From a virus, in the UHGV virus genome UHGV-0084806: a DNA stretch of 15,525 nt, one strand, 5' to 3'. A model generated the notes under the pieces. That model saw only the letters and a list, made by a program, of their open reading frames with translations. It made no database searches and had not been told where the DNA came from. The position numbers were made by a program, and so were the translations under genes. Shown here one piece after another: positions 89-3,511 of the stretch; the first letter of the stretch is position 1, and every line of letters starts with the position of its first letter.

Positions 89-1615
89 ATGAAAAAAGCC
101 ATAGCATATATGCGATTTTCATCACCAGGTCAGATGTCTGGCGACTCATTAAACCGACAGAGAAGACTTATTGCTGAATGGTTAAAGGTAAATAGTGATT
201 ATTATCTTGATACCATAACATATGAAGATTTAGGATTAAGTGCATTCAAAGGAAAGCATGCACAATCAGGAGCTTTTTCGGAATTTTTAGATGCTATAGA
301 GCATGGTTATATATTGCCAGGAACTACATTGTTAGTTGAAAGTCTGGACAGACTTTCAAGAGAAAAAGTCGGTGAAGCGATTGAACGTCTGAAATTGATT
401 TTGAATCACGGTATTGATGTTATAACTCTTTGCGACAATACAGTCTATAATATTGACTCTTTGAATGAGCCATATTCATTAATAAAAGCCATACTTATAG
501 CACAAAGGGCAAATGAAGAAAGCGAGATAAAGTCAAGTCGGGTTAAATTATCATGGAAGAAAAAACGGCAGGATGCACTGGAATCAGGTACGATTATGAC
601 GGCGTCTTGTCCGAGATGGCTCTCCTTAGATGACAAAAGAACGGCTTTTGTTCCAGACCCCGACAGGGTGAAAACTATTGAGCTAATTTTTAAACTCAGG
701 ATGGAAAGGCGCTCATTGAATGCAATAGCCAAGTATTTAAATGATCATGCTGTAAAGAATTTCTCAGGAAAAGAAAGTGCATGGGGACCTTCTGTAATTG
801 AAAAATTATTAGCGAATAAAGCTCTGATAGGTATATGCGTACCTTCATATCGTGCAAGAGGTAAAGGAATAAGTGAAATCGCTGGCTATTATCCCAGAGT
901 CATATCAGATGATTTGTTTTACGCTGTACAGGAAATTCGGTTGGCACCTTTTGGTATTAGCAATAGTAGCAAAAATCCTATGTTGATAAATCTACTTCGA
1001 ACAGTTATGAAGTGCGAGGCTTGTGGTAATACCATGATTGTTCATGCGGTATCTGGAAGTTTGCATGGCTATTATGTTTGTCCGATGAGAAGACTGCATC
1101 GATGTGACAGGCCATCAATAAAGAGAGATTTGGTTGATTATAATATCATTAATGAGTTGCTTTTTAATTGTAGTAAAATCCAACCAGTTGAAAACAAGAA
1201 AGATGCTAATGAAACTTTAGAGTTGAAAATTATTGAGCTCCAGATGAAAATTAATAATTTAATTGCTGCATTATCTGTTGCGCCTGAAGTTACCGCTATA
1301 GCAGAAAAAATCAGAGTATTAGATAAGGAATTACGAAGGGCTTCTGTATCATTAAAAACTTTGAAGAGTAAAGCGGTGAGTTCACTTGGTGATTTTCATG
1401 CTATTGACTTAACCAGTAAAAATGGGCGAGAGCTATGTCGTACACTTGCCTATAAAACATTCGAAAAAATCATAATCAATACAGATAATAAAACCTGTGA
1501 TATCTATTTTATGAATGGCATTGTTTTTAAACACTATCCTTTAATGAAAACAATATCCGCCCAGCAGGCGATAAGTACTCTCAAATATATGGTTGATGGT
1601 GAGGTTTATTTTTGA
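89..1615 (+). CDS. Large serine recombinase (resolvase/invertase-type N-terminal catalytic domain with large C-terminal extension); resembles the 508-aa DLP12 YbcK-type recombinase
   Basis: 508-aa ORF. N-terminus AIAYMRFSSPGQ carries the serine-recombinase catalytic Ser motif; a Cys-rich segment (CEACGNT...YYVCPMRRLHRCD) fits a zinc ribbon; the C-terminus looks coiled-coil. AGGTG Shine-Dalgarno about 8 nt upstream. Visibly AT-rich compared with the morphogenesis genes. Confidence 0.8.
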   Translation: MKKAIAYMRFSSPGQMSGDSLNRQRRLIAEWLKVNSDYYLDTITYEDLGLSAFKGKHAQSGAFSEFLDAIEHGYILPGTTLLVESLDRLSREKVGEAIERLKLILNHGIDVITLCDNTVYNIDSLNEPYSLIKAILIAQRANEESEIKSSRVKLSWKKKRQDALESGTIMTASCPRWLSLDDKRTAFVPDPDRVKTIELIFKLRMERRSLNAIAKYLNDHAVKNFSGKESAWGPSVIEKLLANKALIGICVPSYRARGKGISEIAGYYPRVISDDLFYAVQEIRLAPFGISNSSKNPMLINLLRTVMKCEACGNTMIVHAVSGSLHGYYVCPMRRLHRCDRPSIKRDLVDYNIINELLFNCSKIQPVENKKDANETLELKIIELQMKINNLIAALSVAPEVTAIAEKIRVLDKELRRASVSLKTLKSKAVSSLGDFHAIDLTSKNGRELCRTLAYKTFEKIIINTDNKTCDIYFMNGIVFKHYPLMKTISAQQAISTLKYMVDGEVYF

Positions 1616-1726
1616 GTAATAATCACTTTTTCAACCGTGCTATAGTAAGAAAGTTAGGTAAGTACAATAAAATTATCTATCCTGAACGAAGCGTCCTGAG
1701 CTATGGTTTTACTATAGAGACTGCCA

Positions 1727-2050
1727 ATGGATGCTGGCGTTCTCGTTCTAGCAGTTCAACAATACCCAATCACAAAACAATTCACTGATAACGAACTTTG
1801 CACACTCGCCTGGTTATGGCGAGCAGGGAATGTGATGTTAATTACCTACCAGAACGTTACTCCTCTTCTTCAGGTTGCGGAGCATCGTGAAGCTGGTCGC
1901 TTCACTTCTATCGAGCAAGAATATCCCCAGATACTCAATAAGGCACAGGCAATCCTTGCCAGAGAAACGGCACATGTAAAATTCCGGCCGTGGCAGGATG
2001 ATAAGTGGAGTCGAGTTTTGCCGCATTTACGTTCGGATCGATTACAGTAG
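1727..2050 (+). CDS. Hypothetical protein (orphan, 107 aa), possibly a gene remnant
   Basis: Protein-like translation with no motif I recognise. An in-frame TAG at 1715-1717 prevents upstream extension; weak ribosome-binding site. The antisense ORFs overlapping it look like low-complexity junk. Confidence 0.35.
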   Translation: MDAGVLVLAVQQYPITKQFTDNELCTLAWLWRAGNVMLITYQNVTPLLQVAEHREAGRFTSIEQEYPQILNKAQAILARETAHVKFRPWQDDKWSRVLPHLRSDRLQ

Positions 2051-2113
2051 ATTCCAATTAACAATGAGAAACACATAGCCACCCCGTGGTATTGAAACCA
2101 TATAATGTTGGAT

Positions 2114-2143
2114 TTGAAAACAGATCTTTTTCCATGTATTAAT
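2114..2143 (+). promoter_or_regulatory. Candidate sigma70 promoter (TTGAAA, 17-nt spacer, TATTAA with adjacent TG)
   Basis: -35-like TTGAAA at 2114-2119 and -10-like TATTAA at 2137-2142, with TG at 2135-2136. Predicted start site near 2150, reading into the ORF-free island and the ORF at 2512. Confidence 0.3.
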
Positions 2144-2149
2144 AACTAC

Positions 2150-2511
2150 ATCCCCGCGAGTGATTCAAAAAGGAGGGCCCAATTTTGTCCGAGTTTTTGT
2201 ATTCCCCCGCATGCCGCTGCGGAGCACTACATCTGAGTGTCTGACTAGGGGATAAAATTAGACTGGATAGTGAGAAGAAAGTGGCGTGCTAGGCTGTGCC
2301 GAGTGCTACCAGTACACCCTGGGGGTGTGCAGCTTTCGCCGAGACTGTAGTGGGTATCGGTTAATGCACGAAAAACCGAGAGGTCAGACAACCAATTTGC
2401 CGTAGGATTGTTTCCGGTGCGATACCGGTGTACTAACTGAAAGCAATGCGAAAAAGCATAAACTCGGTCCTTCAGTCGCCCTACACACTATTTACTAAGA
2501 AGGGCTAAAGC
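2150..2511 (+). other. ORF-free island; candidate structured non-coding RNA or long 5' leader of the downstream 118-aa ORF
   Basis: The six-frame track has no ORF of 60 aa or more on either strand across about 2083-2511. The island is visibly more GC-rich than the AT-rich ORFs on either side. Several short inverted repeats are visible, e.g. GGTATCG at 2354-2360 pairing with CGATACC at 2421-2427, ACACCC/GGGTGT at about 2314-2328, and CCGAG/CTCGG motifs. Confidence 0.3.
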
Positions 2512-2868
2512 ATGGATACAATTATCACATGGATGGGAGATCGTCTGTTGGGGTGGATAACAAACAAATCCGATCTGCGGCAGAGGGCAATCACTGGATT
2601 AACTCCTGCGATTTATTCAACAATTTTATATACTGAAAAATTAAAACGTGGTGAGCCTAATAACCCAAACGAAGAAGAAAAACTTTATAGGCTTTGGTAT
2701 GAAGCGTCTTCCCAAGTCGTAGACTTTGATCGAGAGCTGGCTAAAAGATGTTTAGATAAATCAGAATATTGGCTTCATTCTGAATTATATAGCCCTGAGA
2801 AAGTTGGAGAGCTAAACATTTCTTTGGTTGGTATGAAGGCAACGCTTGAAGGAATAAAGCACAATTAA
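2512..2868 (+). CDS. Hypothetical protein (orphan, 118 aa, AT-rich)
   Basis: ATG at 2512 preceded by AAGAAGGG (Shine-Dalgarno-like) 6-13 nt upstream. Coherent translation rich in charged residues. No recognisable domain. Confidence 0.55.
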   Translation: MDTIITWMGDRLLGWITNKSDLRQRAITGLTPAIYSTILYTEKLKRGEPNNPNEEEKLYRLWYEASSQVVDFDRELAKRCLDKSEYWLHSELYSPEKVGELNISLVGMKATLEGIKHN

Positions 2869-3055
2869 AACCTTTGATTTGCGATAATCAACTCGCCATA
2901 ATCATGTCATCGGAGCCTGAACAACTCCGGTGACTTCTGCGCTAAACGGGGACGTTTATGCGCACACACAATCCAAACTCTCTTCTCCCTCCACAGATGC
3001 AGAAATGCACCTGCGATATATTGTATCCAGCGTTTGACCTCTGCGGAGGTGAAGC

Positions 3056-3511
3056 GTGAATCTCCCACAAGATGGCATCAAATTACATCGCGGTAACTTC
3101 ACCGCTATCGGTCGGCAGATCCAGCCTTATCTGGAGGAGGGCAAATGCTTTCGCATGGTGCTTAAACCGTGGCGTGAGAAACGCAGTCTTTCCCAGAATG
3201 CACTCAGCCACATGTGGTACAGCGAAATCAGTGAATACCTCATCAGCAGGGGTAAAACGTTCGCTACTCCAGCTTGGGTAAAAGATGCTCTCAAACACAC
3301 ATATCTCGGTTATGAAACCAAAGACCTGGTTGATGTCGTAACCGGTGATATCACCACTATCCAGTCGTTACGCCATACCTCCGATCTTGATACCGGAGAG
3401 ATGTATGTCTTCCTGTGTAAGGTTGAAGCCTGGGCGGTGAATATTGGCTGCCACCTGACTATTCCGCAGAGCTGCGAGTTCCAGCTGCTCCGCGACAAGC
3501 AGGAGGCGTAA
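3056..3511 (+). CDS. ybcN: YbcN-like nin-region protein (DUF1367 family)
   Basis: 151-aa translation ([30 protein letters not shown]...) matches the DLP12 YbcN protein as I remember it. GTG start at 3056 with GGAGGTG Shine-Dalgarno. Stop overlaps the ninE start (TAATG). Confidence 0.8.

What the first reader, a model, noticed from the sequence alone, without database searches (positions are those of the whole stretch)
2086..2511. ORF-free island of about 430 bp with promoter-like element and inverted repeats: candidate structured RNA or long leader
No ORF of 60 aa or more exists on any of the six frames here, although the island is more GC-rich than its neighbours. A sigma70-like element (TTGAAA, 17 nt, TATTAA; 2114-2142) would start a transcript near 2150, about 360 nt upstream of the next start codon. 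Several inverted repeats are visible (GGTATCG 2354-2360 with CGATACC 2421-2427; ACACCC/GGGTGT around 2314-2328). This could be a cis-regulatory leader, a trans-acting sRNA, an RNA partner of the adjacent small protein, or a decayed pseudogene.
Basis: partly seen in the sequence, partly recalled or inferred. Interest (0 to 1): 0.6.

Follow-up and report, generated by a model that had tools for sequence, protein, structure and literature searches.

The report
New structured RNA gene in prophages
The gene-free island encodes a previously undescribed, intricately folded RNA of about 330 bases that lambda-like prophages of E. coli, Klebsiella and relatives carry as a self-contained unit; what it does is unknown, but it can be tested directly in E. 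coli.

Summary
Window 2150-2480 (+ strand) is one copy of a sharply bounded element of about 331 nt. It occurs in 159 of 5426 complete E. coli genomes, where it is never annotated. It also occurs in Klebsiella phages and in Enterobacter and Obesumbacterium prophages, with identity down to about 73%. No Rfam family matches.

A hand-built model of 18 helices (98 pairs) is 96% paired across 21 sequences, against 35-44% for shifted controls. Thirty pairs change on both sides. The model includes a 6-bp loop-loop kissing contact and an 8-bp pseudoknot, and neither ever breaks in 38 distinct sequences. Variable sites show no codon periodicity, and no protein remnant was found.

In most relatives an intrinsic terminator follows. 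In this window the terminator is missing, so the RNA runs into a 118-aa ORF as a 362-nt leader.

The genes on both sides differ among relatives, and homologues of the downstream proteins occur without the RNA. The RNA is therefore an autonomous module, not a gene-specific leader or protein partner.

Function is unknown. My best guess is a fold-dependent, trans-acting RNA in prophage-host or phage-phage conflict. An embedded ribosome-binding site and mini-ORF overlap key helices.

The parts
2114..2119 (+). -35-like hexamer TTGAAA of the RNA's own promoter
   Evidence: Present in the sequence. A TTGAAA/TTGAAT, TTGTAT or TTGATA hexamer sits at the same offset from the core in 31 of 32 distinct upstream sequences, although the spacer varies. 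Not called by the strict scan. Promoter activity is inferred.
2137..2142 (+). -10-like hexamer TATTAA (17-nt spacer); inferred start of transcription at about 2149-2150
   Evidence: Homologues carry TTTAAT or TTAAAT at the same place. Conservation of the element starts at 2150.
2150..2480 (+). Conserved core of the structured RNA (about 331 nt); a new family with no Rfam match
   Evidence: The BLAST and nhmmer borders are the same in about 100 loci. Rfam gives nothing at the gathering scores or at E<=10. The region is unannotated in 159 RefSeq genomes.
2150..2253 (+). 5' domain. Helix 2150-2155:2248-2253. Inner helix 2156-2158:2208-2210. Hairpin holding the ribosome-binding site, 2166-2171:2194-2199 and 2175-2178:2187-2190. 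Hairpin I, 2216-2223:2232-2238.
   Evidence: The outer helix is invariant, with a single C-G to U-A change in L159. This is the least certain part of the model.
2170..2176 (+). Shine-Dalgarno sequence AAGGAGG, 8 nt upstream of a TTG codon
   Evidence: GGAGG is kept in nearly all aligned sequences; only L159, the most divergent copy, reads GGTGG. Its spacing to TTG varies from 4 to 8 nt. Translation is inferred, not shown.
2185..2244 (+). Mini-ORF (TTG start, 19 codons, MSEFLYSPACRCGALHLSV). It overlaps hairpin I, the kissing-loop strand and the pseudoknot strand.
   Evidence: The first 10 codons are conserved. The rest changes radically, and the ORF length is 19, 12 or 11 aa in different copies. 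Variation is not concentrated at third codon positions, so the peptide itself is probably not the selected product.
2225..2230 (+). Loop of hairpin I (CACUAC): 5' partner of the 6-bp loop-loop kissing interaction
   Evidence: Pairs with 2347-2352. All six pairs are standard pairs in 21 of 21 and 38 of 38 sequences. Three pairs covary, and one of them takes three pair types (AU, CG, UA). Also listed as I12.
2347..2352 (+). Loop of hairpin II (GUAGUG): 3' partner of the kissing interaction
2239..2246 (+). 5' strand of the 8-bp pseudoknot helix (GUCUGACU)
   Evidence: Pairs with 2382-2389. Paired in 100% of cells, with three covarying pairs, including two double changes in the divergent copy L075. 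Also listed as I9.
2382..2389 (+). 3' strand of the pseudoknot helix (GGUCAGAC)
2261..2477 (+). 3' domain, closed by helix 2261-2266:2472-2477. Three-way junction: 2277-2282:2332-2337, 2283-2288:2304-2310, 2292-2294:2298-2300 and 2312-2319:2323-2330. Hairpin II: 2338-2346:2353-2361. Helix 2375-2380:2463-2468. Helix 2397-2400:2443-2446. Hairpin 2411-2418:2424-2431 with a loop of GNRA type. Hairpin 2447-2449:2456-2458.
   Evidence: Most of these helices have pairs that change on both sides.
2512..2868 (+). 118-aa accessory ORF. In this window no terminator separates it from the RNA, so it is presumably co-transcribed. It is not a constant partner of the RNA.
   Evidence: It matches PHROG 12412, of unknown function, and has no Pfam or PADLOC hit. 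It is truncated to 66 aa in L037-type E. coli copies whose RNA is intact. A 51%-identical homologue has no RNA upstream.

Best explanation
The island is a gene for a non-coding RNA of about 330 nt with an elaborate fold, and it belongs to a family that has not been described.

Shown:
- It is conserved with sharp borders across prophages of Enterobacterales, while the genes on both sides are swapped.
- It folds on the + strand into at least 18 helices in two domains. The domains are locked together by a 6-bp kissing-loop contact and an 8-bp pseudoknot.
- Promoter-like hexamers are position-conserved just upstream.
- Most relatives have an intrinsic terminator right after the last helix.

Inferred:
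- It is transcribed from about 2150 as an independent "RNA moron" of lambda-like prophages. A moron is an accessory unit with its own promoter and terminator.
- In this E. coli lineage the terminator has been lost, so the same RNA doubles as a 362-nt leader of a 118-aa accessory gene.

Most likely mechanism (inference, low certainty): it acts through its three-dimensional shape, in trans. It would bind, sequester or scaffold a host or phage protein, or catalyse a reaction, in the lysogen or early in phage growth. This would serve prophage-host or phage-phage conflict, rather than antisense pairing or control of one particular gene.

A conserved Shine-Dalgarno sequence and mini-ORF lie in the 5' domain. 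Ribosomes reading the mini-ORF would melt hairpin I, the kissing loop and, in the 19-codon copies including this window, the pseudoknot. Translation and the compact fold are therefore probably mutually exclusive, which could gate the RNA's activity or its stability.
For: - Conservation and borders: 159 E. coli genomes, two Klebsiella phages and about 95 viral or metagenomic contigs all begin at 2150 and end at about 2480.
- Strand and structure: many G-U pairs occur on the + strand only. The 98-pair model is 96.3% paired, against 35-44% for slid partners. It has 30 pairs with changes on both sides against 4-9, a covariation score of 0.277 against about 0.06, and is reached by 0 of 500 shuffles.
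- The kissing loop and the pseudoknot form standard pairs at every position in 38 distinct sequences.
- Non-coding: no codon periodicity and no protein-family hits.
- Promoter hexamers are conserved in position in 31 of 32 distinct upstream sequences.
- A terminator is present in the classes with other downstream genes.
- Autonomy: there are at least six unrelated downstream genes, or NinB or DUF1367 directly. Upstream genes vary. About 50%-identical homologues of the 176-aa and 118-aa proteins lack the RNA. The 118-aa gene is internally deleted in a subset of copies whose RNA is intact.
- Novelty: no Rfam match in the window or in divergent copies, no annotation in RefSeq, and nothing found in the literature searches.
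Against: - No expression data: the transcript, its ends and its abundance are inferred from sequence alone.
- The -10 element is imperfect and fails a strict consensus scan.
- Single-sequence folding energy is no better than that of shuffled sequence (z -0.59).
- The 5' domain helices are mostly invariant, so they are weakly tested.
- The trans-acting, fold-dependent mechanism is argued from autonomy and structural complexity only. No partner, target or activity is known.
- Every copy is followed by a same-strand gene with no room for its own promoter, which also fits a cis role.
- The family is narrow (Enterobacterales only), so part of the conservation reflects recent common descent.
Confidence: 0.6

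Rival explanations
1. A cis-acting leader or antitoxin-like module. The RNA would exist to control an interchangeable downstream accessory gene that may be toxic. It would do so either by limiting read-through at its terminator, as in type III toxin-antitoxin and abiF-type loci, or by gating translation.
For: - The order promoter, RNA, terminator, protein gene occurs with only 20-50 nt between the terminator and the next start codon, so the gene depends on read-through.
- In this window the RNA is directly fused to the 118-aa ORF.
- In the phage collection these proteins occur in phages that also carry the RNA; the sole exception is one 25.5%-identical hit to the 118-aa protein, E = 4e-4.
Against: - The same RNA precedes at least six unrelated proteins. 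In L042 and L067 it precedes only ordinary nin-region genes, NinB and DUF1367.
- About 50%-identical homologues of the 176-aa and 118-aa proteins sit in the same prophage region with no RNA.
- The terminator stems differ between copies, and no alternative pairing between them and the core was seen on inspection of the sequences.
- There are no tandem repeats.
- The 118-aa gene is decayed in some copies where the RNA is intact.
- None of the cargo proteins hits PADLOC or Pfam.
Confidence: 0.2
2. A processive antitermination RNA. Like the put RNAs of phage HK022 or the EAR RNA of Bacillus, the nascent RNA would act in cis on the polymerase that made it, letting it read through the terminator that follows and on into the nin and Q region.
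For: Its position in the early-right operon of a lambda-like phage, promoter-proximal and directly followed by a terminator and then nin genes and Q, fits this role. The comparison with put and EAR rests on established knowledge and was not tested here.
Against: - No similarity to any antitermination RNA family in Rfam.
- At 330 nt with two domains, it is far larger and more complex than put, which has two stem-loops of about 70 nt in all.
- The E. coli lineage has lost the terminator but kept the whole RNA.
- Constitutive read-through into Q would be harmful to a lysogen (inference).
Confidence: 0.07
3. An mRNA for a small peptide. This would be a dual-function RNA, or a type I toxin mRNA of the hok kind, whose fold serves only to control translation of the mini-ORF.
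For: - There is a strong, conserved Shine-Dalgarno sequence at a workable distance from a TTG start in almost every copy (L159 reads GGTGG), and the first 10 codons are conserved.
- A possible long-range 5'-3' helix, 2189-2199 with 2457-2467, could lock the start region in the way the fold-back element of hok mRNA does.
Against: - The peptide is not hydrophobic. Its C-terminal half changes radically, and its length is 19, 12 or 11 aa.
- Changes in the first 10 codons are at first codon positions, not at wobble positions (by inspection).
- About 240 nt of covarying structure lie downstream of the stop codon.
- The long-range helix has a mismatch in the L067, L066 and L136 lineage and only one compensated change.
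Confidence: 0.06
4. Not an RNA at all: a decayed protein gene, or a DNA-level site such as a recombination or replication site that happens to be conserved.
For: The neighbouring ORF 1727-2050 is a remnant of an antirepressor gene (P22AR C-terminal domain), and a serine recombinase gene lies upstream.
Against: - No codon periodicity and no Pfam or PHROG signal in any frame.
- Compensatory changes and strand-specific G-U pairs.
- A position-conserved promoter and a terminator flank the element.
- In other hosts the element occurs without the recombinase or the remnant.
Confidence: 0.02

Closest known systems
Large "ornate" bacterial RNAs of unknown function that are often carried by prophages (GOLLD, ROOL)
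   Same: It is an independently transcribed, multi-helix, pseudoknotted RNA carried on prophages, with no constant protein partner and no known function. It works like these only in the sense of being a fold-dependent RNA. This comparison rests on established knowledge and on PMC12286853.
   Different: There is no sequence or structure match (Rfam). It is about 330 nt rather than about 600-800 nt. It is confined to lambda-like prophages of Enterobacterales. It contains a ribosome-binding site and a mini-ORF. Self-assembly into multimers was not tested.
Type III toxin-antitoxin RNAs (ToxI/ToxN) and the abiF-motif RNA upstream of AbiF genes
   Same: The gene order is promoter, structured RNA, intrinsic terminator, protein gene dependent on read-through. 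One cargo protein is HEPN-like. An RNA-based AbiF system on a phage is described in PMC12373285.
   Different: There are no tandem repeats. The downstream protein is interchangeable or absent. Homologues of the proteins occur without the RNA. No ToxN or Abi family hit was found.
Processive antitermination RNAs (HK022 putL and putR; EAR)
   Same: It is a structured RNA in a phage early operon, close to a promoter and directly upstream of a terminator.
   Different: It is much larger and has two domains. There is no family match. It has its own promoter. One lineage has lost the terminator but kept the RNA.
Highly folded toxin mRNAs of type I toxin-antitoxin systems (hok/sok)
   Same: It is an RNA of about 350 nt with a small ORF behind a partly occluded ribosome-binding site. 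A candidate 5'-3' long-range helix is present.
   Different: The peptide is neither hydrophobic nor conserved in length. No antisense RNA gene is evident. Most of the conserved structure lies downstream of the ORF.
Prophage-encoded small regulatory RNAs (DicF, IsrK, AgvB/AsxR, svsR)
   Same: They are RNA genes expressed from lambda-like prophages that alter host or phage physiology (PMC5069750, PMC4104026, PMC12803456).
   Different: Those RNAs are 50-100 nt and act through short single-stranded seed regions. This RNA is 330 nt and almost wholly base-paired, with tertiary contacts. svsR is an unrelated 77-nt RNA next to cI.

Membership tests
Any Rfam 15 family (4227 covariance models) | Match at or above the family's gathering score | tested here: not met
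   No hit in the whole window at the gathering scores. Only two chance-level snoRNA hits (E about 8.5) in 1600-3100 at E<=10, and neither lies in the island. No hit on the RNA in five divergent homologous loci.
tRNA / tmRNA | tRNA-like domain, with a tag reading frame for tmRNA | tested here: not met
   ARAGORN finds no gene in the window. The 5' and 3' ends do not pair with each other in the model.
Type III toxin-antitoxin (ToxIN-like) | Antitoxin RNA made of tandem direct repeats | tested here: not met
   Tandem Repeats Finder finds nothing in 2050-2900. Only short two-copy direct repeats are present.
Type III toxin-antitoxin (ToxIN-like) | Terminator between the RNA and the toxin gene | tested here: inconclusive
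   Present in relatives carrying the 178-aa and 176-aa genes. Absent in this window and in all copies carrying the 118-aa gene.
Type III toxin-antitoxin (ToxIN-like) | Cognate endoribonuclease toxin always linked to the RNA | tested here: not met
   At least six unrelated downstream genes, or none. No Pfam or PADLOC hit. Homologues of the proteins occur without the RNA.
Type I toxin-antitoxin (hok/sok-like) | Conserved small hydrophobic toxin ORF | tested here: not met
   The mini-ORF peptide MSEFLYSPACRCGALHLSV is not hydrophobic. Its C-terminus and its length vary.
Type I toxin-antitoxin (hok/sok-like) | Overlapping antisense RNA gene | not tested
   No search for an antisense promoter and terminator was made beyond the general scan, which shows none in the island.
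Riboswitch or attenuator leader | The sensor domain shares nucleotides with an expression platform (alternative pairing with the terminator or the ribosome-binding site), and a consistent class of regulated genes follows | tested here: not met
   Terminator sequences differ among copies without matching changes in the core. Downstream genes are unrelated. Ligand binding cannot be tested with these tools.
Retron or defence reverse-transcriptase ncRNA | Adjacent reverse transcriptase gene | tested here: not met
   The RefSeq annotation of the identical region lists no reverse transcriptase within 4 kb on either side. Neighbours in other loci are replication, nin and hypothetical genes.
Processive antitermination RNA (put, EAR) | The nascent RNA makes RNA polymerase resistant to downstream terminators | not testable with these tools
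   Only the position is compatible. There is no family match.
Protein-coding gene or pseudogene | Three-base periodicity of substitutions, or similarity to a protein family | tested here: not met
   The 180 variable columns split 60/57/63 by phase (p=0.86). Six-frame fragments show nothing meaningful in Pfam (a single E = 0.17 hit, below the family's cut-off) or in PHROGs.
Independently transcribed prophage accessory unit ("moron") | Own promoter and own terminator, inserted between conserved phage genes, with patchy distribution | tested here: met
   Promoter hexamers are conserved in position. A terminator is present in most lineages. The unit is present in 159 of 5426 E. coli genomes and in 4 of 50,697 phage records. 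Promoter and terminator activity are inferred from sequence.

The most novel reading that the evidence does not exclude
The RNA is a new functional class of large bacterial RNA. It could be a ribozyme, the core of a ribonucleoprotein, or an RNA-only sensor. In the sensor reading, the compact two-domain fold forms only when ribosomes stop reading the embedded mini-ORF. This would couple the cell's translation state, for instance during shut-off by phage infection, to an output such as sequestering a protein or allowing read-through into interchangeable effector genes: a membrane protein, a HEPN-like protein and others. That would make it an abortive-infection or exclusion module with an RNA sensor and swappable effectors.
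Probability: 0.15. Interest if true: 0.9.

Novelty: new variant of a known kind. Interest (0 to 1): 0.7.

Why it matters
Large RNAs with pseudoknots and loop-loop contacts are rare in bacteria. Those that have been solved turned out to be ribozymes, ribonucleoprotein cores or guide RNAs. An undescribed one sitting in prophages of E. coli and Klebsiella is therefore worth attention: these are the best-studied and most tractable hosts, and isolated phages carrying the RNA are at hand (Turner, IdasGreatGrand, Kp4856-1).

The covarying kissing loop and pseudoknot give ready-made pairs of disruptive and compensatory mutants. Its position in the accessory-gene hotspot of lambda-like prophages, next to interchangeable cargo genes, suggests a role in prophage-host or phage-phage conflict. 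RNA-only players in such conflicts are still few.

It also shows that a well-supported RNA family can be missing from Rfam-based genome annotation in 159 complete E. coli genomes.

Tried and rejected
- Rfam at the gathering scores and at E<=10, on the window and on divergent copies: nothing. ARAGORN: nothing.
- Single-sequence folding of either strand: not significant.
- The RNAalifold nested consensus was partly wrong. It missed the kissing loop and the pseudoknot, which an all-against-all scan of column pairs revealed.
- Searches for distant relatives with five degenerate DNA patterns in viral contigs, one in species-representative genomes and two in metagenomes gave only Enterobacterales copies plus random hits.
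- A 43-nt match on Alteromonas plasmids covers only the hairpin that holds the ribosome-binding site.
- Obligate protein partner: rejected for the 176-aa and 118-aa proteins.
- The minus-strand 32-aa hydrophobic ORF is interrupted in three lineages, including this window, so it was rejected.
- A resemblance to boxB or nut sites in the GAAAAA hairpin was considered and rejected by eye. The loop is not conserved: it reads GAAUAC or GAAAAC in other copies.
- svsR, a published sRNA of a lambda-like prophage, is an unrelated 77-nt RNA next to cI.
- No covariance model was built.
Full report
**Context.** The window is a lambda-like prophage of E. coli, of the DLP12 type. The RefSeq annotation of an identical stretch reads: replication genes, emrE, the serine recombinase ybcK (window 89-1615), a remnant of an antirepressor gene (P22AR C-terminal domain, 1727-2050), nothing for 461 bp, a 118-aa hypothetical protein (2512-2868), then ybcN/ninB, ninE, ybcO, rusA and Q. 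The finding is the unannotated 461 bp.

**Check of the observation.**
- No ORF of 60 aa or more lies between 2083 and 2511.
- GC reaches 0.50-0.53 at 2200-2500, against 0.33-0.46 on either side.
- The hexamers TTGAAA (2114-2119) and TATTAA (2137-2142) are there with a 17-nt spacer. A strict consensus scan does not list them.
- The ACACCC/GGGTGT repeat is real.
- The GGTATCG/CGATACC repeat is at 2353-2359 / 2420-2426, one base off the coordinates given.

**A sharply bounded, mobile element.** The island matches 159 of 5426 complete E. coli genomes at 83-100% identity, and nothing is annotated under the match in any of them. In the phage collection it is in only four records: Escherichia phages Turner and IdasGreatGrand, and Klebsiella phages Kp4856-1 and Kp4862-1.

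Against the Klebsiella copy the similarity (79%) starts exactly at window 2150 and stops at about 2480, and both flanks are unrelated. Pattern scans of viral contigs, species-representative genomes and metagenomes, checked afterwards with BLAST and nhmmer, gave about 100 loci and 38 distinct sequences with the same borders. Identity goes down to 73%, plus one more divergent copy in Escherichia sp. ESNIH1.

Named hosts are Escherichia, Klebsiella, Enterobacter pasteurii, E. bugandensis and Obesumbacterium proteus. No relative outside the Enterobacterales was found. The other pattern hits were random.

**It is an RNA, on the + strand, and not a decayed gene.**
- The 180 variable columns fall 60/57/63 on the three phases (p=0.86).
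- Six-frame fragments of the island match nothing meaningful in Pfam (one E = 0.17 hit, below the family's cut-off) or in PHROGs.
- Many conserved pairs are G-U, or alternate between G-C and G-U, which works only on the + strand.
- Rfam 15 has no match at the gathering scores, and no match in the island even at E<=10, in the window or in five divergent loci. ARAGORN finds no tRNA or tmRNA.

**Structure.** Folding one sequence alone is uninformative (z -0.59). RNAalifold gave a partial nested model with 15 compensated pairs.

An exhaustive scan of column pairs then showed that the two best-supported helices are long-range and cross the nested model.
- The loop of hairpin I (2225-2230, CACUAC) pairs with the loop of hairpin II (2347-2352, GUAGUG). 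This is a 6-bp kissing contact in which one position takes three pair types in equal numbers: AU, CG and UA.
- 2239-2246 (GUCUGACU) pairs with 2382-2389 (GGUCAGAC). This is an 8-bp pseudoknot, with two double changes in the divergent ESNIH1 copy and one in another clade.

The assembled model has 18 helices and 98 pairs. On 21 sequences it compares with the controls as follows.

| Measure | Model | Slid partners |
|---|---|---|
| Cells forming a standard pair | 96.3% | 35-44% |
| Pairs with a change on both sides | 30 | 4-9 |
| Covariation score | 0.277 | about 0.06 |

None of 500 shuffles reached the observed values for the paired fraction, the two counts of changes on both sides or the covariation score; 23 of 500 reached the count of further pair types. 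In 38 distinct sequences both tertiary helices form standard pairs at every position.

The fold has two domains.
- The 5' domain (2150-2253) is closed by 2150-2155:2248-2253.
- The 3' domain (2261-2477) is closed by 2261-2266:2472-2477. It contains a three-way junction, hairpin II and further helices.

The 5' domain is mostly invariant, so it is the least tested part. One divergent copy has a C-G to U-A change in its closing helix.

**Transcription signals.** In 31 of 32 distinct upstream sequences a TTGAAA/TTGAAT, TTGTAT or TTGATA hexamer, a 17-nt spacer of free sequence and a TTTAAT/TTAAAT/TATTAA hexamer lie at a fixed distance from the first conserved base.

In the lineages with other downstream genes, a GC-rich hairpin and a run of T follow within about 10 nt of the last helix. 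The stems differ between lineages, and on inspection no alternative pairing between them and the core was seen. They look like plain terminators rather than a switch.

The lineage of this window lacks the terminator, as do the relatives L020, L032, L136 and L139. Here the RNA runs straight into the 118-aa ORF, which has its own ribosome-binding site. No terminator-like site occurs before 2998. In this window the RNA is therefore also a 362-nt leader.

**An embedded ribosome-binding site and mini-ORF.** AAGGAGG (2170-2176) precedes a TTG codon (2185) that opens a 19-codon frame ending at 2244.
- GGAGG and TTG are kept in almost every copy, although the spacing between them varies from 4 to 8 nt; the most divergent copy, L159, reads GGTGG.
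- The first ten codons are conserved, but their few changes are at first codon positions.
- The rest of the peptide changes radically, and the frame is 19, 12 or 11 codons long in different copies.

The peptide is therefore unlikely to be the selected product. Ribosome loading may be.

The frame runs through hairpin I and the kissing-loop strand. In the 19-codon copies, including this window, it also runs through the pseudoknot strand. Translation and the compact fold should therefore exclude each other (inference).

The start region (2189-2199) could alternatively pair with 2457-2467 (I3). This helix competes with the helix 2375-2380:2463-2468 and has one compensated change and one uncompensated lineage. 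A conformational switch is possible but unproven.

**Is there a partner gene?** Across 93 loci the gene immediately downstream varies.

| Downstream gene | Loci | Terminator after the RNA |
|---|---|---|
| 118-aa protein | 61 | no |
| 178-aa protein with hydrophobic segments at both ends | 10 | yes |
| 176-aa protein with an invariant R-x4-H motif | 10 | yes |
| 95-aa protein | 3 | no (degenerate remnant) |
| 177-aa protein | 1 | no |
| 69-aa protein | 1 | yes |
| DUF1367 (ordinary nin-region gene) | 1 | yes |
| NinB (ordinary nin-region gene) | 1 | yes |

- Upstream genes vary as well.
- None of the cargo proteins hits Pfam or PADLOC.
- In the phage collection the 176-aa and 118-aa proteins occur in phages that also carry the RNA; the one exception is a 25.5%-identical hit to the 118-aa protein, E = 4e-4.
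- In the large protein collection, however, their roughly 50%-identical homologues sit in the same prophage region with no RNA upstream.
- In a sizeable group of E. coli copies the 118-aa gene has an internal deletion leaving 66 aa, while the RNA is intact.
- The model of the 118-aa protein was too poor to use.

I conclude that the RNA is an autonomous module and that the genes behind it are interchangeable cargo. They depend on read-through, because there is no room for a promoter of their own.

**How it most likely works.** Shown: a conserved, autonomous, + strand RNA with a two-domain pseudoknotted fold, flanked by promoter-like and terminator elements. Inferred: it is expressed as an accessory unit of the prophage.

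An RNA of this size and tertiary complexity, with almost no long single-stranded conserved stretch, is more likely to act through its shape than by antisense pairing. It could bind or sequester a protein, scaffold a complex, or catalyse a reaction. Its place in the accessory-gene hotspot of lambda-like prophages points to prophage-host or phage-phage conflict. This step is a judgement, not a result.

The main rival is a cis role: control of the toxic or accessory gene that follows, as in type III toxin-antitoxin or abiF-type loci. It is weakened by the interchangeable or absent cargo, the missing repeats and the protein homologues that lack the RNA. Antitermination in cis (like put or EAR), a peptide-coding mRNA, and a pseudogene or DNA site are less likely, for the reasons given under the rival explanations.

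**Comparison with what is known.** I found no description of this RNA.
- It is not in Rfam and not in the RefSeq annotation.
- It is not in the papers retrieved on structured-RNA discovery or on prophage RNAs.
- The recently published prophage sRNA svsR is an unrelated 77-nt RNA next to cI.
- The literature library is limited to open-access papers and preprints, so an earlier mention elsewhere cannot be excluded.

In kind it is closest to the large ornate prophage-associated RNAs (GOLLD, ROOL), but it is not a member of those families. Its gene order resembles type III toxin-antitoxin loci, but it fails their defining features.

**Verdict.** The element is real, it is an RNA gene, and it is a new family. 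Its function is open. I rate it as a new variant of a known kind, namely a prophage-borne, independently transcribed structured RNA. Interest is 0.7. There is a minority chance that it represents a new functional class.

Noticed in passing
L004 4001-4045 (Alteromonas mediterranea plasmid pAMDE1; also three sister plasmids): A 43-nt stretch is 86% identical to the hairpin of the RNA that holds the ribosome-binding site (window 2161-2203). It has the same AAAGGAGGGCC..ATTTTG.CC.AGTTTTTG layout and opens a 12-codon mini-ORF (MTKFLNYTRHPE). It lies in an unannotated gap next to a tyrosine recombinase gene. The rest of the RNA is not recognisable there, so this sub-motif may be a module in its own right.
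   Followed up: partly
window 2095-2113; clearer in L032, L047 and L053 just upstream of the -35 hexamer: Many homologues have an inverted repeat, AACCATA-N5-TATGGTT, that abuts or overlaps the -35 hexamer of the RNA's promoter. This could be an operator for an unknown regulator. It is degenerate in the E. coli lineage and absent in the Klebsiella lineage.
   Followed up: partly
L037 about 600-990, compared with window 2512-2868: In a large group of E. coli copies the 118-aa gene carries an internal deletion that truncates it to 66 aa. The RNA just upstream stays 99% identical and full length.
   Followed up: yes
A2 alignment columns 216-314, minus strand (window about 2363-2460): A 32-aa hydrophobic ORF (MLFRIAFGWLAGI...) lies on the opposite strand in most copies outside E. 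coli. It is cut by a stop codon in this window and in two other lineages, so it is probably fortuitous.
   Followed up: yes
[not shown]
   Followed up: partly
window 1727-2050: The ORF just upstream of the island is only the C-terminal domain of a P22-type antirepressor (Rha/Ant family). Full-length Rha genes are annotated under the matches to this query in related phages. This is a gene remnant left by rearrangement at this hotspot.
   Followed up: partly
window 2189-2199 and 2457-2467: An 11-nt long-range complementarity (10 of 11 pairs) links the start of the mini-ORF to the 3' part of the RNA. It competes with two helices of the main model. The divergent ESNIH1 copy changes position 2465 in a way that keeps both alternatives possible, while the L067, L066 and L136 lineage has a mismatch. 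This could be a conformational switch.
   Followed up: partly
L176, downstream of the RNA (starts about 50 nt after the core): A single metagenomic copy carries yet another cargo gene, a 177-aa protein starting MKNIIIDSNAWNFLFD. The N-terminus recalls PIN-domain nucleases, but there is no Pfam hit.
   Followed up: partly
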